DNA of 33,012 nt, from positions 1-33,012 of IMG/VR virus record IMGVR_UViG_3300045988_152528, one strand, 5' to 3'. The stretch's first letter is position 1, and each line of letters opens with the position of its first letter. The notes beneath the pieces were generated by a model. The model had not been told where the DNA came from. It worked only from the letters and a program-made list of their open reading frames with translations, and searched no databases. The position numbers and the translations under genes were made by a program. Source of the stretch: a virus. Shown here piece by piece: positions 1 through 33,012 of this stretch.

Positions 1-55
1 AAGTTACTCGGTTAAATTGTTATTTTTCAGATTCACCGGAAAAGTTTTATCTCAG
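1..55. repeat. Direct terminal overlap. 1-55 is identical to 32958-33012, a circular-contig closure; the unique circle is 32,957 bp.
   Basis: Read directly: both ends read aagttactcggttaaattgttatttttcagattcaccggaaaagttttatctcag. Confidence 0.95.
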
Positions 56-354
56 TTTCCGGTGAATATTTTCCATCCTGTCCACGTATATGCATTATTT
101 TTTTTTATACAAGAATTTATTGCTATTTTTGAAATACTGTATGACAATAAAATTACGGATAAAGTATCCCATCTATGAACAACAAAACCACTAGAATAGC
201 TAAAGCCGGACGGAACATTTTTACTTGGATTTGAAATAGTTATATAACTGAATCCATATCCGTTGAACAATGTTTGTAATATTTCGATAATATCATCTTC
301 GTCTCCGACTTCTATATATCCTTTTAGTTTGCCGTTGACCATCTCGCCATTTAA
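1..354. repeat. Left arm of a 354-bp inverted repeat; reverse complement of 28205-28558.
   Basis: Hand comparison of 1-120 and 300-354 with the reverse complement of 28205-28558 found no mismatch. The two translated ORFs are identical over 101 aa. The junctions diverge at 355 and 28204 and at 32957 and 28559. Confidence 0.9.
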
Positions 355-378
355 ATCAGATAAAAGCAAATTTACCAT
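52..378 (-). pseudogene. Orphan copy of the tail-fibre C-terminal module. The last 101 codons match 27512-28507; only 7 unrelated N-terminal codons precede them.
   Basis: Protein ...LNGEMVNGKLKGYIEVGDEDD...TGWKIFTGN is identical to the fibre C-terminus. No Shine-Dalgarno precedes the ATG at 378 (upstream reads gccgataacttt), so it is probably silent. Confidence 0.7.
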
Positions 379-421
379 AAAGTTATCGGCTTATATGTAT
401 ATGGGCCGATAGCTTTATGGT
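374..421. other. 48-bp imperfect palindrome just 3' of the serine recombinase gene. Candidate attP or recombinase-binding site; alternatively a terminator hairpin.
   Basis: accataaagttatcggc (374-390), a 14-bp AT-rich centre, then gccgatagctttatggt (405-421). The 17-bp arms have one mismatch. Confidence 0.4.
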
Positions 422-439
422 AAAATGAAAACCGTATAT

Positions 440-2008
440 TTACGGCTCTTTTGGGGTTTTAGGATATATATTAAGCGTGAAATTTGCAGTGGAACCCTGC
501 CCTTTTCGGTTTCGCTCGGTTTTTAGGTAGTCTGCTTTGATTAACACACTTTTTAACATTTCATTGCGGACGGAAACGTCATCAATGGTCCAATAGACAG
601 ATATAATATTTTTGACCTTCGGAATATAATCACGCTGGGCGCTATCACTTTCTATGGCATTATCATAGTCCCTCTTTAGCTTATCAAGTTCGACCCGGAG
701 AGTACATCTTTTTTCTTCAAGCACCCTTCGGCGCTCCTGGAAGGTTTCGATATCATAAATACCCTGTTCAAGCAGATCATAGGTATTGGATAATTGCTTT
801 TCGGTTTGACCATAGGCAGACTGCACACTTTTATAAGCAGCTTCCTTAAAAGAGATAATCGAGGCGTATTCGTCCTTTTCTTTTTCGGGCCAATCCAGTT
901 CATACTTTCTCAACCAGTCGGAAAGACTGGTCAGTAATTTTTGTTCCACAAGAAGCAGGGGAGCTGATATATTATTACATCGGCTATTAGGGCAGCGAAG
1001 AACCGGGTAATTTGTTTTGGTATTACTTCCGGCCCTTGCCATCATGGTTCCACATTTCGCGCAATAAATAAGACCAGATAGTGGATTTTGGAGCATTGTA
1101 ATACCAGTTTTGGGGATGGGCTTACATTTTCGTATAAGTTGGGCCTGTTCATATAATACTTCGCTTATAATTGGCTTAAATTTTCCTCGTACCTTTTTGC
1201 AGTCGTCGTTTTTGGGGCGGCTCTCTATGATCCTTCCGTCGATTAACTGCTTTTCTGGCTTTCTCCACCCCCAACGCTGATAGCCGGCATATACGGGATT
1301 GCGCAAAATATCTATAACGGAAGAAGCTGACCATTTGCGCCCGGTACGCGATGGCACTTGCATCAAATTAAGGCGTTCGCAAATCTGATAAGAACCCAAA
1401 GAAGCACCGTCTTCCTGTGAAGCAGTGTAAAGTTCATATATTAATTGAACAATTTTCGCTTCATCTGGAACTATTTCTAATACGTACCCTTTGTTTTCCT
1501 TCTTCTTGACCTTCTCATATCCATACGGTGCCGTTCCGGCAATATACCACCCCTCGTCAAATGCAGATACCCGGCCGCGCTGAATCCGCCGGTTAATGGT
1601 CTTGTATTCTCGTCGGGACATGAAAAGGTTAAATTCAAAATACTCTTCATCAAATTCGTTGTCAGGGTCATAAGTTTTTGACGGTGTAATGATTTTTGTG
1701 TGACTAAACTTAAATGCTTCAGCGACTGTACCCTGATCCTTTGTGTCGCCACGGGCCAATCGTTCCACCTCCATCACCAAAACACCTTCCCATTTACCCT
1801 GCATAACCTCAAGTAAAAGCTGTTGCATCCATGGACGGGCCGATATGGTTTCTCCGGAGACAATTTCTTTATAGACTGCACCGATAGGAAGCTTCATTTT
1901 GATTGACAGCTTAGTTAATTCCTGTTCATGCCGGGCCAGGGTTTCTCCTTCTCCACGGGCCTCTGCTTCCTGGTCCGCTCGACTCTTTCTTAGATAAATT
2001 GCATACAT
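440..2008 (-). CDS. Large serine recombinase (phage integrase type), 522 aa from the MYAIYLRKSRADQ start.
   Basis: N-terminal resolvase-type catalytic motif AIYLRKSRADQ; VERLARGD; PYGY recombinase domain; Cys-rich zinc-ribbon region (CAKCG...CPNSRC); C-terminal coiled-coil region. The ORF-track start at 2059 adds 17 Cys-rich residues and looks less likely. Confidence 0.85.
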   Translation of the reverse strand: MYAIYLRKSRADQEAEARGEGETLARHEQELTKLSIKMKLPIGAVYKEIVSGETISARPWMQQLLLEVMQGKWEGVLVMEVERLARGDTKDQGTVAEAFKFSHTKIITPSKTYDPDNEFDEEYFEFNLFMSRREYKTINRRIQRGRVSAFDEGWYIAGTAPYGYEKVKKKENKGYVLEIVPDEAKIVQLIYELYTASQEDGASLGSYQICERLNLMQVPSRTGRKWSASSVIDILRNPVYAGYQRWGWRKPEKQLIDGRIIESRPKNDDCKKVRGKFKPIISEVLYEQAQLIRKCKPIPKTGITMLQNPLSGLIYCAKCGTMMARAGSNTKTNYPVLRCPNSRCNNISAPLLLVEQKLLTSLSDWLRKYELDWPEKEKDEYASIISFKEAAYKSVQSAYGQTEKQLSNTYDLLEQGIYDIETFQERRRVLEEKRCTLRVELDKLKRDYDNAIESDSAQRDYIPKVKNIISVYWTIDDVSVRNEMLKSVLIKADYLKTERNRKGQGSTANFTLNIYPKTPKEP

Positions 2009-2099
2009 TATATCACTTGTATGATGTTTATAGAAGCAAAAACAACATATTCCTTTCATTTTTCTTGAACTGTGGTTTAATACATTCAGATACTGTGGA

Positions 2100-3600
2100 C
2101 TTTTGATTTTATCCTGTAGCTTGACTACTCAACAGGAGTGTATTGCCGCTACTTTTATCTGAATTGTTTATAGCTGGATGTTGCCGGAGTGTTTCGCTCT
2201 GAGTACTTATTTCAATCAAGTCTACGATGATAATCGTTGGTGGATATCACGGTATCGGACTTTATGAAAGGGAGGTACAACCTCATGATTTACGTAGGCA
2301 TTGATATTGCCAAACTCAACCATTTCGCCGCTGCCATTTCTTCGGAGGGCGGGATACTCATCGAGCCGTTCAAATTCTCAAATGACTATGATGGCTTCTA
2401 TCTGCTGCTTTCTAAACTGGCACCACTTGACCAGGACAGCATCATCATTGGTCTTGAATCAACGGCACACTACGGTGACAACCTTGTCCGTTTTTTGATA
2501 AGCAAGGATTTTAAAGTGTGTGTTCTCAATCCCTTATCGACTTCGGCTATGCGTAAAAATAATGTACGCAAGACGAAGACCGACAAAGTCGACACATTTG
2601 TTATTGCTAAAACCCTTATGTTGCAGGATCCTTTAAGGTTCATCTCCTTAAAGGATCTGGATTACATCGAACTCAAGGAACTCGGCAGATTCCGACAGAA
2701 AACCGTGAAGCAGCGCACCCGTTTAAAAATACAGCTGACTTCCTACATGGATCAGGTCTTCCCGGAACTACAGCACTTCTTTAAGTCCGGTGTGCATCAG
2801 AATTCTGTCTATACGCTCCTTAAAGAAGCGCCGACACCGAATGATATTGCTTCTATGCATATGACTCATCTCACTCATCTTCTCCAAACGGCTTCCCACG
2901 GTCATTTTGGTAAAGATACGGCCAGAGGATTAAGAATTCTCGCACAGAAGTCTGTCGGTATCCATGACAGTTCCTTATCTATTCAAATAACTCAGACCAT
3001 TGAACAGATTGAGTTATTGGATAGCCAGTTATTCCATACAGAGCTTGAAATGGCAAACCTTGTCACCTGCCTCCACTCTGTGATCATGACCATCCCGGGC
3101 ATTGGGACTACCAATGGCGGGATGATACTTGGTGAGATTGGCGATATCCATCGCTTCCCTACACCGGGCAAATTGCTTGCATTTGCCGGATTGGATCCGT
3201 CTGTTTATCAGTCTGGTAACTTCCAGGCCAAGAAGACCCGGATGTCCAAACGAGGCTCGCGTGTTCTTCGTTACGCTCTCGTAAATGCAGCACATAATGT
3301 CGTAAAGAACAATGCGACTTTCAAAGCTTACTACGATGCCAAGAGAGCCGAAGGCCGGACTCACTATAATGCCCTTGGGCACTGTGCCGGCAAACTTGTC
3401 AGGGTCATATGGAAGATGCTCACTGACGAAGTGGAATTTAACCTCGAATAAGAGGTCTGCATACCAATATCGATAGATTTTGAAAAAGCACCGTTAGGGA
3501 GCTTTATTAGAGTTACCCTTCTTTACCATCGATTAGAAAAATGAATTTTCGCCTAATTTATACTTGACTTTTCATAGCTGGTCTCCCTGCTAATTCATTG
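2100..3600 (+). mobile_element. IS110-family insertion sequence. Exact ends are not resolved; they lie somewhere in 2060-2284 and 3452-3631.
   Basis: Contains a typical IS110-family transposase. It is flanked by roughly 180-225 nt and 180 nt of non-coding DNA with no terminal inverted repeats, as expected for IS110. It interrupts the integrase/lysogeny region. Confidence 0.6.
2285..3451 (+). CDS. IS110-family transposase (DEDD N-terminal domain plus IS116/IS110/IS902 C-terminal domain), 388 aa.
   Basis: [14 protein letters not shown]... start preceded by aGGGAGGtacaacctc. Also [41 protein letters not shown] and [12 protein letters not shown], which are hallmark IS110 motifs. Confidence 0.9.
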
Positions 3601-6822: not shown

Positions 6823-7026
6823 ATGAATAACCAAATCGAGAACAATTTTATGTATCATAGTCCAAAGGAGGGACAGCAGGAGAAGTACGAGGCAATCAGG
6901 AGTAAAGCGAAGGAACTGGCGTATCTGATTGATGATATGTGTCCAGGTAGCCGGGAGAAATCCCTTGCCATGACAAAACTGGAAGAGTCGGTTATGTGGG
7001 CGAACGCTTCCGTTGCCAGAAGTTGA
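6823..7026 (+). CDS. Conserved-looking small phage protein (67 aa), function unknown.
   Basis: RBS aaagAGGAtggt. The motif CPGSREKSLAMTKLEESVMWANASVAR resembles a widespread small phage protein family I cannot name with certainty. Confidence 0.6.
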   Translation: MNNQIENNFMYHSPKEGQQEKYEAIRSKAKELAYLIDDMCPGSREKSLAMTKLEESVMWANASVARS

Positions 7027-12929: not shown

Positions 12930-13964
12930 ATGATGAGCGGAACGATGAGTGCAAGTATGGTAATCAACAATATCCTTGTAGCAGCGAGTGAGTTTATAAT
13001 ACCTGACCGTATGGAGCAATTAAAATTAATCCTCTATATGAATCTTTGCGATTATACGTTTATCAAGAACGAAGACTCGACAGCAATTGTAAAAAGCGAC
13101 GATGATACGTTTGAGATTCTGCACGATTGGCAGAATCAGCTTATCATAGACGGAAAAACCAGGTCAACCATAAAGCAGTATGGGTACGAGATTAAAAATC
13201 TGCTTCTCTATGCCGGAACCGGAATAAGGGATATCCGGGAAAAGCATGTCATCGGATATCTGACGCGTGGGAAGGTGCAGAAGAAATGGAAAGATAAAAC
13301 GTACAATTCAAAGGTGCGTTCCCTCAGGGCTTTCTTCAAATGGGCTTACGAATATGATGTAATTACTACTGACCCAATGAAAAGAATAAAAGAAACAAAA
13401 GAAGAATATCGCATGGGTTCCATTCTGACGCCGGAGCAGCGCGAGATATTCCGGTGCTGTTGTAAGAATGAACGGGAACTTGCGCTGGTCGATCTCCTTT
13501 ACAGCTCCGGCGGCCGGGTATCAGAGATTATACAGCTTAACCGGGATAGTATTGACCTATCAAACCGGAGAGTAAACATCGTCGGAAAAGGACGGAAAGA
13601 ACGGGAGATCCGGTTCTCTGCGCAAGCCAAAGTACATATCGAAGGATATTTGCGGTCAAGGAAAGATGATAGCCAGGCATTGTTTGTCAGCCAGAAAGCA
13701 CCGCACAAACGACTTAGCGCCGATGGAGTGCGATATATTTTAAAAGCCATACAGAGCCGCGATATCAGGCTGAAGGGTTTGCAGATATCACCACACACAT
13801 TCCGGCGTACGTGCGGAACCGATATGATTAATCGCGGCGCGCCTGCGGAAATGGTACAGAAGAAGTTAGGACACACCAAAGTGGATACAACTTTACAGTG
13901 TTATGCAAAGATTAGCCAGGAGGCGGCCAGAGACGCGGAACGCCGCTATGGAGTAGCAGGATAA
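12930..13964 (+). CDS. Tyrosine site-specific recombinase (XerC/D / phage-integrase family), 344 aa.
   Basis: SAM-like N-domain; GGRVSEI (Arg box I); HTFRRTCGTDMINRG...LGHTKVDTTLQCYAK (HxxR...H...Y catalytic box). RBS atAGGAGGacaagtct. Confidence 0.85.
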   Translation: MMSGTMSASMVINNILVAASEFIIPDRMEQLKLILYMNLCDYTFIKNEDSTAIVKSDDDTFEILHDWQNQLIIDGKTRSTIKQYGYEIKNLLLYAGTGIRDIREKHVIGYLTRGKVQKKWKDKTYNSKVRSLRAFFKWAYEYDVITTDPMKRIKETKEEYRMGSILTPEQREIFRCCCKNERELALVDLLYSSGGRVSEIIQLNRDSIDLSNRRVNIVGKGRKEREIRFSAQAKVHIEGYLRSRKDDSQALFVSQKAPHKRLSADGVRYILKAIQSRDIRLKGLQISPHTFRRTCGTDMINRGAPAEMVQKKLGHTKVDTTLQCYAKISQEAARDAERRYGVAG

Positions 13965-26167: not shown

Positions 26168-27263
26168 TTTATCACAGAATGGTTATACCGATAGACAAAT
26201 CAAAAAACTTCTAAAGGAAAACAGGCAGATATCCTTTGAATGCGACCTGTTAAACAGCCAGGAAAAATACGTCAAGACATTGCACAGCATAAAAGGAAAC
26301 GTTTCTTTCGATGCTGGAGCGGAGATTATGGGAACGGCGTCGTTTTCGATGGCGGAAAAAGAGGTACAGGGGATAAATCTAGTTGATGCAAGATTGGCAG
26401 CCTATATGCTGCTTTTATCTCCTGCCGGATGGATTAGATTTCCGCTTGGTGTTTACATCATGACATCACCGCAGATTTCTTCGTCTGGAGGACATACAAC
26501 ATATAATGTGGATTGCTATGACAAAAGTGTAATTTTAAAAGAAGACAAGCTTACTGATCGCCTATATATACCACAGGGGGCAAAATATGATCAGGAAGTT
26601 CGGAGAATTATCGCCACGGCGGGGGTGACAAAAGTAAGCATCGAGGGAGGAAACTTAACTGTGCCGAATGCGTTGGAATTTGAAATTGGAACGGATAAGC
26701 TGACGGTGGTAAATGATTTATTATATGCAATCAACTATAATCCCTTACATTTTGACCGCACTGGGACGGCCGTATCGGAACGTTACATCGTACCGAGCGG
26801 ACGCCGGGCAGAGGACGAGTACCTGACGGACGGCCTAAGTATCATAAGACCGGGAGCCAGCAGGAAGCAAGATTTATATAATGTACCAAACGTTATAATC
26901 AGATACGTGGAAAACCCGGACGCAGAACCATTGCGGAGTGAATATATAAATGATTCTGCGGACAGTATTTTAAGCACGGTAAGGCGCGGAAGAAAAATTG
27001 TGGATATTGAGGCGGTGGATGATATAGCGGATCAGGCCACGTTGGATGATTATACAAAAAGGGTGGCGGTGGAAAAATCACAAATCAATGATTCTATGTC
27101 GCTGACAACTGCATTAATGCCGCACCATGGGTACAAGGATTGTTATTTTGTACGACACGACAAAATGGGGATGGCAGAAAAATTTATTGAAAGCTCCTGG
27201 TCGATGGAACTTGCGATAGGCGGGAGCATGACACACAATATAAAAAGGATAACGCTAATATGA
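26154..27263 (+). CDS. Tail-associated / baseplate hub-like protein (369 aa).
   Basis: Gene order only. Confidence 0.45.
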   Translation: MTMYDLSQNGYTDRQIKKLLKENRQISFECDLLNSQEKYVKTLHSIKGNVSFDAGAEIMGTASFSMAEKEVQGINLVDARLAAYMLLLSPAGWIRFPLGVYIMTSPQISSSGGHTTYNVDCYDKSVILKEDKLTDRLYIPQGAKYDQEVRRIIATAGVTKVSIEGGNLTVPNALEFEIGTDKLTVVNDLLYAINYNPLHFDRTGTAVSERYIVPSGRRAEDEYLTDGLSIIRPGASRKQDLYNVPNVIIRYVENPDAEPLRSEYINDSADSILSTVRRGRKIVDIEAVDDIADQATLDDYTKRVAVEKSQINDSMSLTTALMPHHGYKDCYFVRHDKMGMAEKFIESSWSMELAIGGSMTHNIKRITLI

Positions 27264-27508
27264 TGTTTGATAACAACAAAGATAAAATCAGGGAAGAAAG
27301 AGAGTTTTATGGACGGGATTCAGAATCTTTTCGCATGGCAGAAGTGGCGGCGCTATCCGGCGGCCGCCCGATTGTAAAATTTTATGGAGAAACAAAAAAT
27401 AGTCAGAAAGCATATAAGTATCTTTCGGGCTATTCGCCGGTGGTAGGAGATAAGGTCATAATGGCCAGAACCGGCGGAACCTACGTAATTTTAGGAAAGG
27501 TGGTATAA
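27260..27508 (+). CDS. Small tail-tip/baseplate protein (82 aa).
   Basis: Gene order; overlapping start. Confidence 0.4.
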   Translation: MMFDNNKDKIREEREFYGRDSESFRMAEVAALSGGRPIVKFYGETKNSQKAYKYLSGYSPVVGDKVIMARTGGTYVILGKVV

Positions 27509-27511
27509 GGC

Positions 27512-28507
27512 GTGACACAAAATGTAATTTTAAATTTAAAGTCTCCCCAGGCCATACAGACAGATATTGCATTTACGCAAGGAGACTACGGAGAAGCAAA
27601 ACTGACAATTGCGGTGAAGGATGACGAACAATACATAACCGGAGACACTGGGGCCAGCATTTCCTTCCTTCGTGCAGATGGAAACATAGTGACGGGAGAA
27701 CTATCTGGAACGCAGGGAATGTACGGATATACCTTTGCGGGAAACGAGCTGGAAACATCAGGAAAGACAGTGGCAACCGTAACAATAGAATATGATGGAG
27801 GGAGAGTTTCAACAGCGGCTTTTATTTTTACAGTAAGGTACAATCCGGCCTATGACAAAAAAATACCGGCCGGACCATATATAACGGAACTTGAAAAAAT
27901 CAAGAATCAGGCACAGACATACGTTGAATATCTTTCGGCACTAATAGAACAATTGCAGCCGGATATAGGAAGTGCCGCACTAACAAAAGCCGACCTAGTG
28001 AATGGATACACACAGACGGTTGCAGGGATAAAAGCGTTTGACGCAGCAGCGGCGAAGACTTTAAAAGAAATTGTTGACGGAAAGATTGACGCGACGAAGA
28101 TTGTTAATAATCTTCTCTCCACGGACGCATCCATGGTATTAAGTGCGGCACTTGGGCCGATTATTGACCAGCGGTTAACTGACCTACTGGAAAAATATAA
28201 TCGGTTAAATGGCGAGATGGTCAACGGCAAACTAAAAGGATATATAGAAGTCGGAGACGAAGATGATATTATCGAAATATTACAAACATTGTTCAACGGA
28301 TATGGATTCAGTTATATAACTATTTCAAATCCAAGTAAAAATGTTCCGTCCGGCTTTAGCTATTCTAGTGGTTTTGTTGTTCATAGATGGGATACTTTAT
28401 CCGTAATTTTATTGTCATACAGTATTTCAAAAATAGCAATAAATTCTTGTATAAAAAAAAATAATGCATATACGTGGACAGGATGGAAAATATTCACCGG
28501 AAACTGA
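27512..28507 (+). CDS. Tail fibre / receptor-binding protein with a BppU-type N-terminal domain (331 aa, GTG start).
   Basis: The N-terminus ILNLKSPQAIQTDIAFTQGDYGEAKLTIAV resembles the BppU_N Ig-like domain, followed by a coiled-coil middle. The AT-rich C-terminal 101 aa lie inside the inverted repeat. Confidence 0.75.
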   Translation: MTQNVILNLKSPQAIQTDIAFTQGDYGEAKLTIAVKDDEQYITGDTGASISFLRADGNIVTGELSGTQGMYGYTFAGNELETSGKTVATVTIEYDGGRVSTAAFIFTVRYNPAYDKKIPAGPYITELEKIKNQAQTYVEYLSALIEQLQPDIGSAALTKADLVNGYTQTVAGIKAFDAAAAKTLKEIVDGKIDATKIVNNLLSTDASMVLSAALGPIIDQRLTDLLEKYNRLNGEMVNGKLKGYIEVGDEDDIIEILQTLFNGYGFSYITISNPSKNVPSGFSYSSGFVVHRWDTLSVILLSYSISKIAINSCIKKNNAYTWTGWKIFTGN

Positions 28508-28558
28508 GATAAAACTTTTCCGGTGAATCTGAAAAATAACAATTTAACCGAGTAACTT
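28205..28558. repeat. Right arm of the 354-bp inverted repeat: fibre codons 232-331 plus 51 bp of 3' flank.
   Basis: Reverse complement of 1-354. Confidence 0.9.
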
Positions 28559-28585
28559 AACAAAAAAGAAAGGAAGATAGGGAAA

Positions 28586-28984
28586 ATGAATAAAGACAAA
28601 CTAATTTTAAAAAATGAAGCCGAAATTGAGCTTGAAGCCGGAGCCAGCTTGGGGGCCTTGCAGGTCGCATCCGTTGACCGCGCTGCCATGCTGGCGACCT
28701 GGCAGCAGTTGAGGCCAGACAACCTGTCGCAAGTGCAGATTAAAAACGGCGCCGGGCTGACAGTCGGAACCTATACCGACCTTGTGCTGGTGTCTGAAAC
28801 GTCCGTGGTGGCACCCGACGGTAAGGTACTGACAACTTATAGCCTGCGCCCTAAAACAGACGTGGAACGGCTTGAAGAAAAAGTGGCAGCGGTTGAAGCG
28901 GGGCAGCAGGTGCAGGACGGGGCCATCAATGATGTAGCCACATTGGCGGGAACACTGGCAGAACAAGCAGGAGGGATGTCATAA
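28586..28984 (+). CDS. Hypothetical protein (132 aa), markedly GC-rich; occupies the post-fibre position typical of XkdW-like genes.
   Basis: RBS aaGGAAGatagggaaa. The composition differs strongly from the flanking fibre tip. Confidence 0.55.
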   Translation: MNKDKLILKNEAEIELEAGASLGALQVASVDRAAMLATWQQLRPDNLSQVQIKNGAGLTVGTYTDLVLVSETSVVAPDGKVLTTYSLRPKTDVERLEEKVAAVEAGQQVQDGAINDVATLAGTLAEQAGGMS

Positions 28985-29097
28985 TGGGAAAATTTTACGG
29001 GTTAAAAATAAGGGCAGGAGAAATGGCGCTGGAAGAGGTACAGACGTGGTGGCGGCCACAGGTTGAAAAATGGCTGAAAGAGAATCCGGCGGAGTAA
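28984..29097 (+). CDS. XkdX-like mini-protein (37 aa).
   Basis: Hand translation MGKFYGLKIRAGEMALEEVQTWWRPQVEKWLKENPAE. ATGA-type overlap with the upstream stop. Size and position just before the holin match the XkdX family. Confidence 0.5.
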   Translation: MGKFYGLKIRAGEMALEEVQTWWRPQVEKWLKENPAE

Positions 29098-29109
29098 AGG
29101 AGATAGACA

Positions 29110-29604
29110 ATGAAAAAAGAATATGTAATTGCAATTCAGGGAGCATTGGCGGCGGCCGGCGCTTTTTTAAGTGACAGGCTGGGAATCCTGTACCCCGTAT
29201 TATGCGTTTTAATGGGGATGATGGTCTTAGACTATATCACGGGCATGCTTGCCAGCAAAACAGAAGCTATTGACCATCCGGATGACAAAAGATATGGATG
29301 GAGCAGTAAAAAAGGGGCTAAAGGTATCATCAAAAAAGTTGGTTATCTGTGCGTGATCGCTGTGGCGATGGTAGTTGATTATGTAATAGCTAGGGTATCT
29401 GGAAGCCTTGGAATTGCAATGCCGACAAACGCGTTTTTCGGCCTTCTGGTGGCCGTTTGGTACTTACTGAACGAATTACTGTCTATCATTGAAAACGCTG
29501 GCAGAATGGGCGCTGCGGTGCCGGATTGGCTGCTTAAATATATCGCGGTCTTAAAGGACAAGATTGACAGCAACGATTATGGACAGGGTGACAAGCAGAA
29601 ATAG
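29110..29604 (+). CDS. Holin (phage_holin_4 / toxin-secretion holin family-like), 164 aa.
   Basis: Multiple TM segments, the VLDYITGMLASK motif, RBS aAAGGAGatagaca, and position 5' of the endolysin. Confidence 0.8.
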   Translation: MKKEYVIAIQGALAAAGAFLSDRLGILYPVLCVLMGMMVLDYITGMLASKTEAIDHPDDKRYGWSSKKGAKGIIKKVGYLCVIAVAMVVDYVIARVSGSLGIAMPTNAFFGLLVAVWYLLNELLSIIENAGRMGAAVPDWLLKYIAVLKDKIDSNDYGQGDKQK

Positions 29605-29680
29605 AGGGGCGGTGATCCTTGCATCTTCCGGCCGGTGGGGTTATACCGGCGTTGCGGCGTCGCAACAACAGTACATAGGC

Positions 29681-29704
29681 CCCGGGGAAATCCCGGGACT
29701 TTTT
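29681..29704 (+). terminator. Short GC hairpin plus T-run between holin and endolysin. Possible attenuator or terminator.
   Basis: cccgggg-aaa-tcccggg followed by acttttt. Confidence 0.35.
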
Positions 29705-29722
29705 ACAAATAGAGGAATGTAA

Positions 29723-30568
29723 ATGGAAAATGCAGTAAACAAATTGATTCAGACGGCGAAGAAATGGAATGGATACCTGGAAAAGAAGAGCAATAAAGAC
29801 CTGGACAGTTTTACGGACAACGCTGGCAGCAATAATTACACCTGCTTTGCCAGGGACTATTATAAGCATACCGGGCATAATCTCCAGGCGCAGCCTTGGT
29901 GTGCGATGTATGTGTCAGATGTGTTTGTACAGGCCTTTGGCCTGGAGACGGCCAAAAAGATGCTGGGCGGCGCGTTGTATCATTATTGCCCGACGGGGGT
30001 TAACCAGTTTAAGGCAGCCGGCCGGTGGAGCAAAACACCGGAGCCGGGAGCGGTTATCTTCTTTACCAACGGGACACGTGCCTATCACACTGGTATCGTG
30101 ACGCAGGTGACGGCCAGTAAGGTCAAAACTATCGAGGGAAATACTTCCGGAGCATCAGGCGTGGTCGAAAACGGTGGTGGAGTCTGCGCAAAGTCATATG
30201 ATAAATCATACTCCCGTATCCTGGGATATGGATTACCCGATTGGAGCCTTGCGAGAGAGCCTGAGATTTATCGAGAAGGCTTTATTCGGGCGGCCGATGG
30301 AAAACGTTGGTGGTATCAGTACAAAGACGGCAGCTACGCACACAGCGGCTGGTACTGGCTGATGGAGGTCACAACAGGAACATCTGCATGGTATTTGTTT
30401 GATGCTGCCGGATATATGCTGACAGGCTATCAGACAGCACCGGACGGACGAAAATATTTCCTTTGCCCGGACGAAGGGACCGAAGAAGGAAAGTGCATGG
30501 TAACGGACGACCAGGGAGCATTGCAGATTGCTGAGTATGACGAGATTGTCAGACGGTACATAATTTAA
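29723..30568 (+). CDS. Endolysin: N-terminal CHAP-like amidase/peptidase plus C-terminal cell-wall-binding (CW_binding_1-type) repeats, 281 aa.
   Basis: QPWCAMYVS (catalytic Cys context), AYHTGIV (His). The repeats GWYWLMEVTTGTSAWYLFDAAGYMLTGYQ and RWWYQYKDGSYAHSGW are typical clostridial wall-binding repeats. Confidence 0.8.
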   Translation: MENAVNKLIQTAKKWNGYLEKKSNKDLDSFTDNAGSNNYTCFARDYYKHTGHNLQAQPWCAMYVSDVFVQAFGLETAKKMLGGALYHYCPTGVNQFKAAGRWSKTPEPGAVIFFTNGTRAYHTGIVTQVTASKVKTIEGNTSGASGVVENGGGVCAKSYDKSYSRILGYGLPDWSLAREPEIYREGFIRAADGKRWWYQYKDGSYAHSGWYWLMEVTTGTSAWYLFDAAGYMLTGYQTAPDGRKYFLCPDEGTEEGKCMVTDDQGALQIAEYDEIVRRYII

Positions 30569-30613
30569 GCGTACTTCAGTCTCTAAAAATTGACTGGTGC
30601 TGATTTTGTCACA

Positions 30614-30642
30614 TTGACAAAACGGTTCTGTAATGTTAAAAT
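30614..30642 (+). promoter_or_regulatory. Promoter TTGACA-17-TAAAAT driving the CRISPR-repeat-containing transcript.
   Basis: ttgaca at 30614-30619, a 17-bp spacer, taaaat at 30637-30642. No ORF follows. Confidence 0.6.
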
Positions 30643-30694
30643 AAAAGAAATCCAGAGTATTAAATACTCTGCGCATCGTAATATCAACTTAACA

Positions 30695-30729
30695 GTTGCT
30701 GTTCGCCCGTTTCGGGCGTGGATTGAAAA
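30695..30729 (+). CRISPR. Solitary type I-C-like CRISPR repeat unit; core is 30701-30729.
   Basis: gttgctGTTCGCCCGTTTCGGGCGTGGATTGAAAa. It has a 6-bp GC hairpin followed by GTGGATTGAAA, the conserved 3' part of I-C repeats (compare GTCGCGCCCCGCACGGGCGCGTGGATTGAAAC). It occurs only once in the window. Confidence 0.7.
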
Positions 30730-30771
30730 AACTACTTCATTTAAGCTATTGGAAGTTTCTGTTAAGTTGCA

Positions 30772-30805
30772 AAGCGGACCAGGTGCATCTGGTCCGCTTA
30801 TTTTA
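30772..30805 (+). terminator. Intrinsic terminator; possibly doubles as a degenerate second repeat hairpin.
   Basis: aaGCGGACCAG-gtgcat-CTGGTCCGCtt followed by atttt. It is preceded by gttgc, the same 5 nt that precede the true repeat hairpin. Confidence 0.65.
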
Positions 30806-30819
30806 AAGATGATTATTAA

Positions 30820-30858
30820 AAGCCCCTCAACCGCTTTTTATAAGCAGAAGAGGGGCTT
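30820..30858 (-). terminator. Possible terminator of the cas7 operon (9-bp stem, long loop).
   Basis: aagcccctc / gaggggctt arms. On the minus strand they are followed by tttaataat. Confidence 0.3.
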
Positions 30859-30874
30859 GCCATGTTATAGAATA

Positions 30875-31756
30875 TTACCAGCCTTCTATCACTTCAGGTT
30901 CCAATCCTGGAAGATTAAGCAATTCCGCCTTGTAATATGGGGGTACGTCCATAGGCGAAAATTGCAGGGTGCGGAAGACTTTCACAGGAGAATATTGACC
31001 GTTCGGGCAATTATGTTCCCACCAGTATAATCTATCCAACGTCATACTTCCGGCTGGGCGGGCGGCAGATGAATCATTCATAAACATATTTATGATGGCA
31101 TTTTTGATTGCCAGTGCATCACCATATGTGAATCCTGTAATTTTTGCCAGCTGTGGATAGATTGAACCACGAAAGACATATGCCCCATGATCAATCTGAT
31201 ACCGGGTCCCCATTGTATCGCTTGACCTTTCAGACCTTGACGAAGGGTCATTTGAATTAACTGATTTTGTCAAGTTTTTCTGTATCACGGTTATATAATC
31301 CAAAGATACGGCGTCTTGAATTGAAACAGGTCCCCGGACACATTCGGATATACCTGCTTCTTCTTCGGATTCTTTTGACGCTTTGGAAGATTTGAAAGCA
31401 AATACTTGACCGAATGCCCGGACATCAATCCATTTTTCACAGGCAATTTTACGGTAGGAAGTCCTATCTTTTGATTTCGCGGCCTGAACCATGTCTGACT
31501 CCGCTTTTACCTTGCCGTGAAGACTTTTCTGTTCATCCAGCAGTTCTTCTTGCTTAACAACAAAAACATCATATCCATTTTCTGAAAGGCGATCTCTTAT
31601 TTTTCGCTTTAAGCAGACGTCGGTAATGATTCCATTTCCGTTAAAATCTTGTCGCGGGACGTTTCCATTAATCGGATCGCCATTCGGGTTACATCTTTCT
31701 GCAACAATAATACCGCAGAAATCAATCCTGTTCTTCAATACGGCCGAGGTATCCAT
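30875..31756 (-). CDS. cas7: Cas7 (Csd2/Csh2 family, type I-C-like Cascade backbone subunit). Solo phage-encoded copy, 293 aa.
   Basis: NRIDFCGIIVAERCNPNGDPINGNVPRQD...GIITDVCLKRKIRDRL; DVRAFGQVFA; VRGPVSIQDAVS; SDTMGTRYQIDHGAYVFRGSI; TGFTYGDA...MFMNDSSAARPAGSM. These are all hallmark Csd2-family blocks. RBS AAGGAGGGGGacg precedes the ATG at 31756; the ORF-track start at 31780 is less likely. Confidence 0.9.
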   Translation of the reverse strand: MDTSAVLKNRIDFCGIIVAERCNPNGDPINGNVPRQDFNGNGIITDVCLKRKIRDRLSENGYDVFVVKQEELLDEQKSLHGKVKAESDMVQAAKSKDRTSYRKIACEKWIDVRAFGQVFAFKSSKASKESEEEAGISECVRGPVSIQDAVSLDYITVIQKNLTKSVNSNDPSSRSERSSDTMGTRYQIDHGAYVFRGSIYPQLAKITGFTYGDALAIKNAIINMFMNDSSAARPAGSMTLDRLYWWEHNCPNGQYSPVKVFRTLQFSPMDVPPYYKAELLNLPGLEPEVIEGW

Positions 31757-32090
31757 CGTCCCCCTCCTTTTCCCGGACAAAAATCGTAAACCGGATGAAA
31801 TCTAAAGTATAGGGAGTTGGTTTGCGCGAACCGGAATCCCAGTTTTCGATTGTACGTAACGAAATATGATACATAGCTGACATTTTCGCCATGCTGACAT
31901 TAAGTCTTTTGCGCAAGCCTGGAAAATCCAGGCTTGCAAGTTTGAAAATTAATGATAAATCTTTCGTAATTTCATCGGTATCGGATGCTTTGTCCATCCA
32001 TTCCTGCCAGCCGAGGGTCATTATAAACTCTTCCGGCTCATTGTGCTTGACAGCTTCATCACATAGTCTAATAAATGTAGTATATAACAT
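31722..32090 (-). CDS. HTH DNA-binding protein (122 aa), Aca-like by position.
   Basis: C-terminal MAKMSAMYHISLRTIENWDSGSRKPTPYTLDFI is an XRE/MqsA-type HTH (..TlqnWE.GrrkP). RBS AAGGAGGaacaagag precedes the ATG at 32090. Confidence 0.7.
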   Translation of the reverse strand: MLYTTFIRLCDEAVKHNEPEEFIMTLGWQEWMDKASDTDEITKDLSLIFKLASLDFPGLRKRLNVSMAKMSAMYHISLRTIENWDSGSRKPTPYTLDFIRFTIFVREKEGDDGYLGRIEEQD

Positions 32091-32213
32091 CTCTTGTTCC
32101 TCCTTCTTATAACCATTTAAACAATTCGCCATCTTTTTAAAATGACACGCTGTAATTTATCATAATCCCATAGTTTTACGATTCTTCTTCCTCTTCTATT
32201 GGCCTCCATAAGA

Positions 32214-32606
32214 TTACTTCAGCCTTCGTTCCTGTTGTGCTATCCATTTTTTGTATAGATCAATATCTACGATAATATAACGATTCTCGTTGATATCATC
32301 AAACCATTTGATGTCTTGCCAATGCATTGAGGGACCTTCAGCAACATCATCATCATAAAAAAATACAATCTCCTCCCGCTTGTCGAGACATTTTAATATA
32401 TATGACTCATGCGACGAATGGTCAATTTTCCATTTGTTTTTTAACCAATGGTATTCCGCAACATTTCTACATAATACCACTATTTCCGGATAATAATGTT
32501 CATATAAATCTAAATGCTTTTTAATTTCTTCTATTGTTTTTGCCTTCATAGCTCTCTTCTCTCTTTTTTTGTCATGACGATAGATAGGCAACCGTATTAT
32601 AACCAT
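32214..32606 (-). CDS. Hypothetical protein: 130 aa, or 112 aa if it starts at the ATG at 32549.
   Basis: ORF in the operon. The start at 32606 overlaps the upstream stop, suggesting translational coupling. No recognisable motif. Confidence 0.55.
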   Translation of the reverse strand: MVIIRLPIYRHDKKREKRAMKAKTIEEIKKHLDLYEHYYPEIVVLCRNVAEYHWLKNKWKIDHSSHESYILKCLDKREEIVFFYDDDVAEGPSMHWQDIKWFDDINENRYIIVDIDLYKKWIAQQERRLK

Positions 32607-32851
32607 AATACTGTTTCGCCTTTGTAATGGCGGATATTTCCATCCTCACGAACCATGCGAAGCGGGGTATCCTCAATCTCGCCATCTTCCCAAATGTTTA
32701 ATCTTACTTCCATAACATCCGGGTCAGAAAATGCTTTTTCTGCTGCGTCATACGCTTCATCATAAGAATCGTACCAGTCGGCCATATCGGCGGTGTTCCA
32801 ATCACTATCACTGTTTACAGATTCGATATTAACTGCATACTCTTTTTTCAT
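32597..32851 (-). CDS. Small, highly acidic protein (84 aa), first gene of the operon. Anti-CRISPR-like by size, charge and position.
   Basis: RBS aAAGGAGAGacgaaa. The sequence is rich in D/E/W (SDSDWNTADMADWYDSYDEAYDAAEKAFSDPD). Confidence 0.65.
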   Translation of the reverse strand: MKKEYAVNIESVNSDSDWNTADMADWYDSYDEAYDAAEKAFSDPDVMEVRLNIWEDGEIEDTPLRMVREDGNIRHYKGETVLWL

Positions 32852-32901
32852 TTTCGTCTCTCCTTTTTGTTTGAAATTGCTTACCTCTTGTTTATGTATT
32901 T

Positions 32902-32930
32902 ATTATACCACTCATTGAGTGGTATGTCAA
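32902..32930 (-). promoter_or_regulatory. Perfect consensus promoter TTGACA-17-TATAAT (minus strand) with an embedded 21-bp perfect palindrome (32905-32925) as candidate operator.
   Basis: The reverse complement reads TTGACAtaccactcaatgagtggTATAAT. The palindrome ataccactca-a-tgagtggtat spans the spacer and the -10 box. Confidence 0.75.
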
Positions 32931-33012
32931 GAGAAATATCAATTAAATTTAAAAATAAAGTTACTCGGTTAAATTGTTATTTTTCAGATTCACCGGAAAA
33001 GTTTTATCTCAG

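What the first reader, a model, noticed from the sequence alone, without database searches (positions are those of the whole stretch)
28205..33012. 354-bp inverted repeat brackets the whole 4.4-kb lysis and anti-CRISPR arc, next to a serine recombinase
Seen in sequence: 1-354 is the reverse complement of 28205-28558; I found no mismatch in the stretches I compared. In the circle these arms delimit a 4,399-bp arc (28559-32957) and a 27,850-bp arc. The arms hold the last 101 codons of the tail fibre plus 51 bp of 3' flank. The serine recombinase gene lies 86 bp from the left arm.

Established knowledge: the phage P1 C-segment and Mu G-segment are invertible tail-fibre cassettes flanked by inverted repeats, with a serine invertase adjacent.

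Inference: this is not a classic host-range switch, because a crossover anywhere in the arms leaves the fibre ORF unchanged. Inversion would instead swap which block follows the late operon: lysis genes as drawn, or the acr-cas7 operon when flipped. In either orientation the genes next to each arm stay co-directional with incoming transcription. The other possibilities are a scar of fibre-tip module exchange or an assembly artefact.
Basis: partly seen in the sequence, partly recalled or inferred. Interest (0 to 1): 0.65.

Follow-up and report, generated by a model that had tools for sequence, protein, structure and literature searches.

The report
Duplicated tail-fibre tip cassette of a shufflon
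The 354-bp inverted repeat is real: it is one swappable receptor-binding "tip" of the phage tail fibre, present both in the expressed gene and in a silent inverted storage slot of a tip-shuffling (host-range) system common in human-gut Clostridia prophages; the neighbouring serine recombinase is simply the phage integrase.

Summary
In detail: 1-354 and 28205-28558 are 100% complementary in a circular 32,957-bp genome. MEGAHIT assemblies recover both arcs as unitigs ending in exactly k bases of the arms, so the repeat is not an artefact.

The interpretation needs revision. Each arm runs from an in-frame 12-bp core, TTAAATGGCGAG (Leu-Asn-Gly-Glu), to a 23-bp end motif, AAATAACAATTTAACCGAGTAAC. 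That makes each arm one mobile tip cassette, which I call W.

In about 45 related loci the same core starts 29 cassette types on at least six fibre scaffolds. Relatives carry different cassettes in an expressed slot and a silent inverted slot. Two near-identical prophages, L027 and L028, have the two cassettes reciprocally swapped at 100% identity. Other lineages carry a Rin-like tyrosine recombinase inside the cassette cluster.

The window phage is a W/W "homozygote". A second homozygote, L025, has a 400-nt perfect repeat. The serine recombinase is the integrase: its attP core, ATATACATAT, lies at 393-402, in the gap beside arm A.

Flipping of the lysis/Cas7 arc is possible but unsupported. 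Every informative relative has the lysis genes directly after the fibre.

This is a new variant of the known Rin/Min type of tail-fibre shufflon. The enzyme acting in this lineage is unresolved.

The parts
28205..28558 (+). Arm B. This is tip cassette W in the expression slot, fused in frame to the constant part of the fibre (100 codons + stop + 51 nt).
   Evidence: Relatives L002, L003, L004 and L009-L013 are 86-98% identical up to 28215-28219. They then carry unrelated tips, and homology resumes at about 28530.
1..354 (-). Arm A. This is the same cassette W in the silent, inverted slot at the prophage end. Window 32958-33012 repeats 1-55.
   Evidence: At this position L003 carries a different cassette and L029 carries W at 98% identity. 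L027 and L028 share the 48-nt outer flank (355-402) at 100%.
28205..28216 (+). Crossover core '5m', TTAAATGGCGAG (Leu-Asn-Gly-Glu), in the expression slot.
   Evidence: The window has only two matches at up to 1 mismatch, both at the arm ends, against 0.22 expected by chance. The core is invariant at the start of every cassette aligned.
343..354 (-). Crossover core '5m' in the silent slot.
28534..28556 (+). Terminal motif '3m', AAATAACAATTTAACCGAGTAAC, at the end of the expressed cassette.
   Evidence: 0.02 matches expected by chance. In heterozygous relatives it forms a 23-26-nt inverted repeat around the arc. It is the inner breakpoint of the L027/L028 swap.
3..25 (-). Terminal motif '3m' of the silent cassette, also present at 32960-32982.
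27512..28204 (+). Constant N-terminal part of the fibre / receptor-binding protein (231 codons from the GTG start; BppU_N plus a fibre repeat).
   Evidence: Pfam BppU_N E = 1.6e-11. The region is 92-98% conserved in relatives that carry different tips.
52..378 (-). 108-aa ORF made of 8 unique codons plus the silent cassette. It is probably not a gene.
   Evidence: It matches no family. No promoter or Shine-Dalgarno sequence is seen upstream. No gene with exactly this 108-aa product is on record in the public assemblies; a gene starting at the same position is called, cut by the contig end, in L047.
28559..32957 (.). The 4,399-bp arc between the slots. It holds the 132-aa gene, holin and CHAP endolysin on the + strand. 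On the - strand it holds Cas7 (type I-C), a weak HTH-like protein, a 130-aa gene and an 84-aa gene.
32902..32930 (-). Consensus sigma-70 promoter of the 84-aa/Cas7 operon, inside the arc.
   Evidence: TTGACA, 17-nt spacer, TATAAT, 12 of 12 with an extended -10.
380..415 (.). attP of the serine integrase. It is the palindrome AAGTTATCGGC..GCCGATAGCTT, and the common core ATATACATAT is at 393-402.
   Evidence: Homology with prophage junctions stops at 402 on the silent-slot side (L027, L028) and at 393 on the integrase side (L046, L048).
440..2008 (-). Large serine recombinase, the phage integrase. It is 522 aa as called in public assemblies, and the ORF extends to 2059.
   Evidence: One search finds the identical protein next to the C-terminal half of a GH18 gene and then host genes.
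12930..13964 (+). Armless XerC/D-like tyrosine recombinase. It is the only in-cis candidate for the tip invertase of this lineage.
   Evidence: Pfam Phage_integrase + SAM_4. It is 27% identical (E = 3e-39) to the recombinase embedded in the lineage-B shufflons. It is conserved at 96-98% in lineage-A contigs.

Best explanation
The two arms are two copies of one exchangeable tail-fibre tip cassette, W. W is about 100 codons and is the presumed receptor-binding domain.

One copy is fused in frame to the constant N-terminal part of the fibre; this is the expression slot. The other copy lies inverted and silent on the far side of the lysis/Cas7 module, at the very end of the prophage next to attP; this is the storage slot.

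Each cassette begins at the core TTAAATGGCGA(G/T). The last cassette of an array ends at AAATAACAATTTAACCGAGTAAC.

In this phage family, recombination at these short sites moves cassettes between expressed and silent positions, as in a shufflon. An inversion between two inverted 5m cores brings a stored tip into the fibre but also flips the arc. An inversion between the two 3m motifs turns the arc back, so the lysis genes again follow the late operon. The net product is a reciprocal tip swap.

The window phage is a loss-of-heterozygosity state with W in both slots. The simplest route to it is one homologous crossover inside the 4.4-kb arc between two swapped isomers.

In this state switching is phenotypically silent. 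The 354-bp perfect repeat is left as a substrate for homologous inversion of the arc.

What is shown and what is inferred:
- Shown: the cassette anatomy, the shuffling among relatives, the reciprocal swap, the reality of the repeat, and the integrase and attP.
- Inferred: site-specific catalysis, the two-step order of inversions, the origin of the W/W state, and the enzyme. The enzyme may be a Rin-like tyrosine recombinase supplied in trans, or the phage's own XerC/D-like recombinase at 12930-13964.
For: 1. The arm ends coincide exactly with the two motifs.

2. Lineage-A relatives are 92-98% identical upstream of the core and then carry unrelated tips. L001 and L004 are 99.85% identical over 10.7 kb yet carry W and MIKTAD respectively.

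3. There are 72 cassette instances of 29 types on at least 6 fibre scaffolds. Nine types occur expressed in one genome and silent in another. The same left context is joined to different cassettes, and the same cassette to different left contexts. The junction always lies inside AAATGGCGA.

4. L003, L027-L029, L032 and L034 have the same split layout with different cassettes in the two slots. L029 stores 8 cassettes, and W is the one next to the arc.

5. L027 and L028 sit at the same host site with 99.2-99.7% identical flanks. Their two cassettes are exchanged at 100% identity (294 and 402 nt). The breakpoints lie in the 5m core (17-nt overlap) and the 3m motif (27-nt overlap), and the arc is not inverted.

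6. L015 and L019 (99.8% identical flanks) have the cassette groups on either side of a tyrosine recombinase gene swapped and inverted, with 34-nt 3m overlaps.

7. That recombinase gene is bracketed by a 3m-type inverted repeat in L018 and L031. The same holds for a 63%-identical relative in L059/L060, whose cassettes start GTTAAATAGTAATAT. The TTAAAT core is therefore shared by both site classes and by distant systems.

8. A second homozygote exists: L025 has a 400-nt 100% inverted repeat made of another cassette type.

9. Independent assemblies confirm the repeat in the window phage.

10. There is precedent in the Rin shufflon of Bifidobacterium prophages, which has an 11-bp rix site and a tyrosine invertase (PMC6109161).
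Against: - No recombinase lies inside or next to the cassette system in the window or in other lineage-A loci. The window's tyrosine recombinase is 14 kb away and only 27% identical to the embedded Rin-like enzymes.
- The intermediate with a flipped arc, which the two-step model predicts, was never seen in a heterozygous genome (0 of 6).
- The comparative data would also fit rare homologous or double-crossover exchange at the conserved cassette borders.
- The receptor-binding role of the tip is inferred from position and variability only. The structure prediction failed and no solved homologue was found.
Confidence: 0.8

Rival explanations
1. The repeat is a functional switch that flips the 4.4-kb arc, so that either the lysis genes or the acr/Cas7 operon follow the late operon. 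The adjacent serine recombinase, or RecA, would drive it.
For: - The geometry is correct. The arc holds convergent gene blocks, so each orientation keeps the genes co-directional.
- A 354-bp perfect inverted repeat is an adequate substrate for homologous inversion.
- One k=127 contig, L024, walks from the fibre through the arm into the 84-aa side of the arc. That is the flipped join.
Against: - All four junction sequences are identical in both isomers for any k below 354, so the L024 walk proves nothing. L022 and L023 walk the other way.
- All 17 related contigs have the lysis genes after the fibre, including 6 where the orientation is unambiguous.
- The Cas7 operon has its own consensus promoter.
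- The serine recombinase is the integrase, with attP beside it.
- The repeat ends exactly at cassette borders that the whole family shares.
Confidence: 0.08
2. The repeat is an assembly artefact. Either it is a collapsed or mis-joined repeat, or it is a chimaera of two isomers (W/other and other/W) in a mixed population.
For: - The window is a short-read circular contig with a 55-bp overlap.
- W occurs in the expressed slot in some genomes and in the silent slot in others, so such a mixture is conceivable.
Against: - Three MEGAHIT contigs, from two assemblies (k = 127 and k = 119), have lengths that equal arc + 2k: 4,653, 28,104 and 28,088 nt. The two k=127 contigs are 100% identical to the window over the stretches read, and the 127 nt of arm were seen at both ends of the small-arc contig and at the one end of the large-arc contig that was read.
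- A second cassette at comparable depth would have broken the contigs at the fibre junction. No alternative cassette is attached to this backbone in those assemblies.
- L025 shows the same state in an NCBI genome.
Confidence: 0.03
3. The repeat is a passive scar with no dedicated switch in this lineage. Cassettes are exchanged only occasionally, by homologous or microhomology recombination between co-infecting phages at the conserved cassette borders. The silent copy is a leftover with no role.
For: - No invertase gene lies adjacent in lineage A.
- Some lineage-A phages, such as L026, lack a silent cassette altogether.
- Both copies in L025 carry a mutated core, AAATAGCGA.
- Mosaic exchange of receptor-binding-protein heads between phages is well known (established knowledge).
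Against: - The L027/L028 exchange is reciprocal and 100% identical, between genomes more than 99% alike, with breakpoints in 12-27-bp motifs.
- Extreme combinatorial shuffling occurs exactly at a 9-bp core.
- The same sites serve lineages that carry an embedded tyrosine recombinase.
- Arrays of up to 8 in-frame silent cassettes are maintained.
Confidence: 0.12
4. The second copy is expressed as a free 108-aa tip protein, for example a receptor-blocking superinfection-exclusion factor or a decoy.
For: The ORF 52-378 has its own ATG, and the same 8-codon leader is present in L027 and L028.
Against: - No promoter or ribosome-binding site is found upstream.
- The leader differs or is absent in other silent slots, and internal cassettes start with CAA, GTA or TAA.
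- No gene with exactly this 108-aa product is on record in the public assemblies, although a gene starting at the same position is called, cut by the contig end, in L047.
- In the prophage the ORF abuts a disrupted host gene.
Confidence: 0.04

Closest known systems
Rin shufflon of Bifidobacterium breve/longum prophages (Mavrich et al. 2018, PMC6109161). Rin-like loci are also noted in Eggerthella lenta prophages (PMC8778435).
   Same: - A constant N-terminal receptor-binding-protein segment plus several short variable C-terminal cassettes.
- A short asymmetric repeat at the start of every cassette: 11-bp rix there, the 9-12-bp AAATGGCGA core here.
- An armless XerD-like tyrosine recombinase beside or inside the cluster. 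Here this is seen in lineage-B relatives L015, L018, L019, L030, L031, L059 and L060.
- A gut Gram-positive temperate phage.
   Different: - In the window lineage the silent cassettes are separated from the fibre by the whole lysis module and a Cas7 operon (4.4 kb), and no recombinase is adjacent.
- A second motif class, 3m, brackets the central segment.
- The site sequence is unrelated to rix.
- The host is a Clostridia/Lachnospiraceae-type bacterium.
- One cassette pool is shared by at least 6 different fibre scaffolds.
- The window itself carries the same cassette twice.
Din-family serine-invertase tail-fibre switches: Mu G/Gin, P1 C/Cin and the p15B Min multiple-inversion system.
   Same: - Alternative fibre C-termini are stored in inverted orientation.
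- Inversion at the constant/variable junction changes host range.
- Min has several cassettes and crossover sites.
   Different: - Those systems use an enzyme of about 190 aa, 26-bp gix/cix sites and a Fis enhancer.
- Here the only serine recombinase is a 522-aa integrase with its own attP.
- The sites here differ from gix/cix.
- The invertible segment here carries lysis and anti-defence genes instead of tail-fibre assembly genes.
Tail-fibre shufflon of BV01-like Phocaeicola vulgatus phages (preprint PMC13596623).
   Same: A multi-cassette shufflon overlaps the distal end of a tail-fibre gene in a human-gut temperate phage. It has 10-bp directional motifs and a flanking recombinase.
   Different: - A Bacteroidota host.
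- A compact 1.7-kb locus.
- A different motif (TGGGAGAACT).
R64 plasmid shufflon (Rci/sfx).
   Same: - Multiple inversions swap C-terminal segments of an adhesin (PilV).
- The sites have only one conserved arm plus a spacer, like the silent 5m sites here (from established knowledge).
   Different: It is a plasmid pilus system with an Rci-specific sfx sequence. No homology was tested.

Membership tests
Din-family invertible tail-fibre segment (Mu G/Gin, P1 C/Cin, p15B Min) | A small (about 190 aa) serine invertase encoded next to the segment. | tested here: not met
   The adjacent enzyme is 522/539 aa with Resolvase + Recombinase + Zn_ribbon_recom domains. It matches phrog_95 integrase at E = 1e-88, against 6e-15 for DNA invertase. 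It has its own attP, and integrated copies exist.
Din-family invertible tail-fibre segment (Mu G/Gin, P1 C/Cin, p15B Min) | Inverted crossover sites at the constant/variable junction of the fibre gene, with two different C-termini in the segment. | tested here: inconclusive
   Inverted cores sit exactly at the constant/variable junction. Relatives hold two different tips. In the window both tips are the same cassette.
Rin-type tyrosine-recombinase RBP shufflon | A constant N-terminal gene segment plus several variable C-terminal cassettes that can each be fused in frame. | tested here: met
   There are 29 cassette types, all in frame with Leu/Gln/Val-Asn-Gly-Glu/Asp. Nine types are seen both expressed and silent.
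Rin-type tyrosine-recombinase RBP shufflon | A short conserved repeat at the start of each cassette that marks the crossover point. | tested here: met
   AAATGGCGA is invariant. Junctions between left contexts and cassettes always fall within it. The window has 2 matches against 0.22 expected.
Rin-type tyrosine-recombinase RBP shufflon | An armless tyrosine invertase encoded beside or inside the cassette cluster. | tested here: inconclusive
   This is met in relatives L015, L018, L019, L030, L031, L059 and L060. It is not met in the window. The window's only tyrosine recombinase is at 12930-13964, 14 kb from the fibre, and is 27% identical.
Rin-type tyrosine-recombinase RBP shufflon | Different configurations occur among near-identical genomes or within one population. 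| tested here: met
   Among genomes this is met: L027 versus L028 shows a reciprocal swap, and L015 versus L019 differ likewise. Within one population it could not be tested, because no read tool is available.
Large serine integrase with attP (for the neighbouring recombinase) | A palindromic attP next to the gene, and prophage junctions that share a short core with it. | tested here: met
   The attP palindrome spans 380-415 with the common core ATATACATAT at 393-402. One junction is seen in L027 and L028 and the other in L046 and L048. The host LysM-GH18 gene is split between the two ends.

The most novel reading that the evidence does not exclude
Lineage-A phages such as this one may run a split shufflon that has no invertase of its own. 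The lysis cassette and an anti-CRISPR module (solo Cas7 plus a repeat-like RNA) ride inside the invertible segment. Two site classes that share a TTAAAT core (5m and 3m) would allow a double inversion that swaps tips while restoring gene order. The enzyme would be supplied in trans by co-resident prophages of other tail types. Those prophages draw on the same pool of at least 29 receptor-binding cassettes, giving a communal host-range library for a guild of gut prophages.
Probability: 0.3. Interest if true: 0.7.

Novelty: new variant of a known kind. Interest (0 to 1): 0.55.

Why it matters
- Tail-fibre shufflons driven by tyrosine recombinases have been described in Bifidobacterium, Eggerthella and, recently, Phocaeicola phages. 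Two literature searches here found none described for Lachnospiraceae/Clostridia prophages.
- The 84-aa marker gene of this prophage group is listed in 858 blocks of the public assembly collection, so the group is common in the human gut.
- One cassette pool is shared across siphovirus-like and myovirus-like fibre scaffolds. This makes the family a natural system for studying how temperate gut phages retarget hosts quickly.
- The split layout and the recurrent "homozygous" states show how such switches decay.
- The case also gives a practical warning. A long perfect inverted repeat around a phage lysis module can be a duplicated cassette rather than a regulatory switch or a misassembly. Short-read contigs cannot report the orientation of the enclosed segment.

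Tried and rejected
Isomer ratios could not be measured.
- GenBank phages: megablast of 27000-33012 found no match.
- Exact-protein look-ups of the 108-aa ORF and the 539-aa form of the recombinase found nothing. The 522-aa form of the recombinase worked.
- Structure: single-sequence AlphaFold2 of the fibre gave pLDDT 36, which is unusable, so no fold search was run. A sequence search of the PDB gave only chance-level hits.
- Rfam at gathering thresholds found nothing in the window.
- Contig L024 as proof of a flipped isomer was rejected. With k=127 below the 354-nt arm length, the four junction sequences are the same in both isomers.
- The serine recombinase as invertase was rejected, because its attP and integrated copies were found.
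- An IMG/VR scan for the junction between the 3m motif and the 84-aa side found only lineage-B'-type loci and L003. No contig had a fibre joined to the 84-aa side.
- Complementary distribution of the XerC/D-like and Rin-like recombinases was only weakly informative. The scan finds close relatives only.
- Decoding the two motifs as a classical two-arm tyrosine-recombinase site was inconclusive. Only a 4-bp dyad, CTCG..CGAG, surrounds TTAAAT.

Full report
**1. The observation**

The window is a circular contig. Bases 1-55 repeat at 32958-33012, so the genome is 32,957 bp. Positions 1-354 are the perfect reverse complement of 28205-28558.

Arm B covers the last 100 sense codons and the stop codon of ORF 27512-28507, plus 51 nt of 3' flank. 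That ORF is 331 aa with a BppU_N domain and a fibre repeat. Arm A lies 85 bp from the stop codon of a recombinase gene on the minus strand.

The repeat is not an assembly product. In MEGAHIT assembly ERZ925849 (run ERR527186, k=127) the small arc is a 4,653-nt contig, which equals 4,399 + 2x127. It is 100% identical to the window and has 127 nt of the arm, inverted, at both ends (L036). In the same assembly the large arc is a 28,104-nt contig, which equals 27,850 + 2x127 (L047). A k=119 assembly of another sample has a 28,088-nt contig, which equals 27,850 + 2x119. These lengths are what a de Bruijn graph produces around a true inverted repeat longer than k.

**2. What the arms are**

Related contigs from IMG/VR and from metagenomes are 86-98% identical to the window up to 28215-28219. 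They then carry completely different sequence, and homology resumes at about 28530. The arm is therefore a replaceable module.

Alignment shows that every such module starts in frame with TTAAATGGCGA(G/T), which encodes Leu-Asn-Gly-Glu/Asp. I call this core 5m. The last module before the downstream genes ends with AAATAACAATTTAACCGAGTAAC, which I call 3m. In the window these motifs occur only at the ends of the two arms.

Across about 45 loci I counted 72 cassette instances of 29 sequence types, on at least six unrelated fibre N-termini. These include the 232-aa BppU_N type of the window and a 127-aa type in phages with Baseplate_J/Tail_P2_I genes. Nine types are expressed in one genome and silent in another.

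The same left context is found joined to different cassettes, and the same cassette, including W, to different left contexts. The junction always falls inside AAATGGCGA. L001 and L004 are 99.85% identical over 10.7 kb upstream yet carry different tips.

**3. The second slot**

At the position of arm A, L003 carries a different cassette in inverted orientation. L029 stores eight in-frame cassettes there, and the one nearest the arc is W at 98% identity.

The decisive comparison is L027 versus L028. These are two prophages at the same host site with flanks 99.2-99.7% identical. The cassette expressed in one is the silent cassette of the other, and the reverse also holds, at 100% identity over 294 and 402 nt. 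The breakpoints lie in the 5m core and the 3m motif, and the 4.5-kb arc keeps its orientation.

The same logic appears in a second lineage. L015 and L019 have 99.8% identical flanks. The cassette groups on either side of a 340-aa tyrosine recombinase gene are exchanged and inverted, and the recombinase segment is bounded by 34-nt 3m overlaps.

That recombinase has Phage_integrase and SAM_4 domains, is XerC/D-like, and lacks an arm-binding domain. It is bracketed by a 3m-type inverted repeat in L018 and L031. A 63%-identical relative in L059/L060 is bracketed by TATAAACATTTAACAAAGTA, and its cassettes begin GTTAAATAGTAATAT. The TTAAAT core is therefore common to both site classes and to distant members. 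This is the pattern expected of recombinase crossover sites.

**4. The recombinase next to arm A**

This enzyme is a large serine recombinase with Resolvase, Recombinase and Zn_ribbon_recom domains, and it matches phrog_95 integrase at E = 1e-88.

Homology between the window and the prophage ends of L027 and L028 stops at window position 402. Contigs L046 and L048 carry the identical 522-aa protein followed by the C-terminal part of a GH18 gene and then host genes. Their homology to the window stops at 393.

The common core ATATACATAT (393-402) lies at the centre of a palindrome spanning 380-415. The host gene that is split encodes a LysM-GH18 protein. The enzyme is therefore the integrase. 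Its closeness to arm A follows from the storage slot lying at the end of the prophage.

**5. How it most likely works**

Shown:
- The cassettes are bounded by 5m and 3m.
- They are shuffled among genomes exactly at those motifs.
- A reciprocal swap between the expressed and silent slots has occurred between near-identical prophages.
- Related lineages carry a Rin-like tyrosine recombinase inside the cluster.

Inferred:
- An inversion between inverted 5m cores brings a stored tip into the fibre but also flips the arc.
- A second inversion between the 3m repeats restores the order fibre, then lysis genes.
- Only restored genomes are likely to lyse and transmit. This would explain why all 17 fibre-arc contigs are canonical, including the 6 heterozygous ones that are unambiguous.
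- The W/W state of the window, and the 400-nt perfect repeat of another cassette in L025, follow most simply from one homologous crossover within the arc between two swapped isomers.

In the W/W state tip switching changes nothing. The long repeat can still support homologous flipping of the arc.

Contig L024 walks from the fibre through the arm into the 84-aa side of the arc. For any k below 354, however, all four junction sequences are identical in both isomers. This contig, and the canonical walks of L022 and L023, say nothing about orientation.

The enzyme for this lineage is unresolved. The candidates are the phage's own XerC/D-like recombinase at 12930-13964 and a Rin-like enzyme supplied in trans. 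The XerC/D-like enzyme is 27% identical to the embedded one and is conserved in lineage-A contigs. A trans supply is plausible because other lineages use identical sites and cassettes and integrate at the same host loci.

**6. Comparison with known systems**

The closest described system is the Rin shufflon of Bifidobacterium prophages. It has a constant Rc segment, Rv cassettes, an 11-bp rix site and an armless tyrosine invertase (PMC6109161). A similar shufflon has been reported in BV01-like Phocaeicola phages (PMC13596623). The classical serine systems are Gin, Cin and Min.

The family found here meets the cassette and crossover-repeat criteria. It meets the recombinase criterion only in sister lineages. 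It does not meet the Din-family criteria.

It differs from the known systems in four ways. The lysis module and a Cas7 operon lie inside the invertible segment. A second site class is present. No adjacent invertase is found in this lineage. One cassette pool is shared by several tail types. Two searches of the paper library found no description for Lachnospiraceae or Clostridia phages.

**7. Verdict**

The feature is a homozygous state of a tail-fibre tip shufflon and is a new variant of a known kind.

My confidence in the cassette and slot interpretation is about 0.8. My confidence in site-specific catalysis within this lineage is about 0.5-0.6.

Noticed in passing
window 30614-30805 (+), core 30695-30732: A solitary type I-C CRISPR-repeat-like unit, GTTCGCCCGTTTCGGGCGTGGATTGAAA, lies between the endolysin and the solo Cas7 gene. 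It sits behind an 11/12 promoter (30614-30642) and before a strong hairpin terminator. The 165-nt stretch folds with z = -5.7. A 25-mer of the unit is exactly conserved in 16 related loci. It looks like an RNA anti-CRISPR (Racr) of the kind described in PMC10651486.
   Followed up: partly
window 30875-31780 (-): A solo Cas7/Csd2 (type I-C) gene scores 258 bits against TIGR02589 (cut-off 182) and E = 2e-65 against Pfam Cas_Cas7. It lies in an operon with a protein that has a weak HTH-like match and with 130-aa and 84-aa proteins of unknown function. The exact 84-aa protein is indexed in 858 blocks of the public collection. An anti-CRISPR role is plausible but untested.
   Followed up: partly
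window 380-415, plus L027/L028 and L046/L048: The prophage integrates into a host gene encoding a LysM-GH18 protein. The N-terminal 260 aa lie at one end of the prophage and the C-terminal 140 aa at the other. The 10-bp common core is ATATACATAT. A gene split by an element that carries a large serine recombinase resembles the intervening elements of sporulation genes. That resemblance is from memory and was not tested.
   Followed up: partly
window 2018-3582: An IS110-family element (DEDD_Tnp_IS110 + Transposase_20; ORF 2237-3451) is inserted between the integrase gene and the 398-aa gene. It is present in the ERR527186 contigs L047 and L049. It is absent from the otherwise 97-100% identical prophages L046 and L048.
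   Followed up: yes
window 6823-7026 (+): The 67-aa early-region ORF corresponds to a gene whose product carries a precomputed Pfam hit to Acb2_Tad1_hairpin in L046 and L047. This makes it a possible anti-CBASS or anti-Thoeris sponge.
   Followed up: no
L025 7495-7894 and 12203-12602: A prophage in NCBI assembly GCA_046989105.1 has a 400-nt, 100% inverted repeat of another cassette type around the same arc. Both copies carry a mutated core, AAATAGCGA.
   Followed up: yes
L029 5975-7895: An array of eight tandem in-frame silent cassettes fills the storage slot of one lineage-A prophage. Internal junctions read AAATAACAAT(G/A)CAAAATGGCGAG, so the cassette tail AAATAACAAT precedes each next core.
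   Followed up: partly
window 28205-28558: The cassette is much more AT-rich (31% G+C) than the genome (42%) and the arc (44%). This fits a module that circulates among different phages.
   Followed up: no
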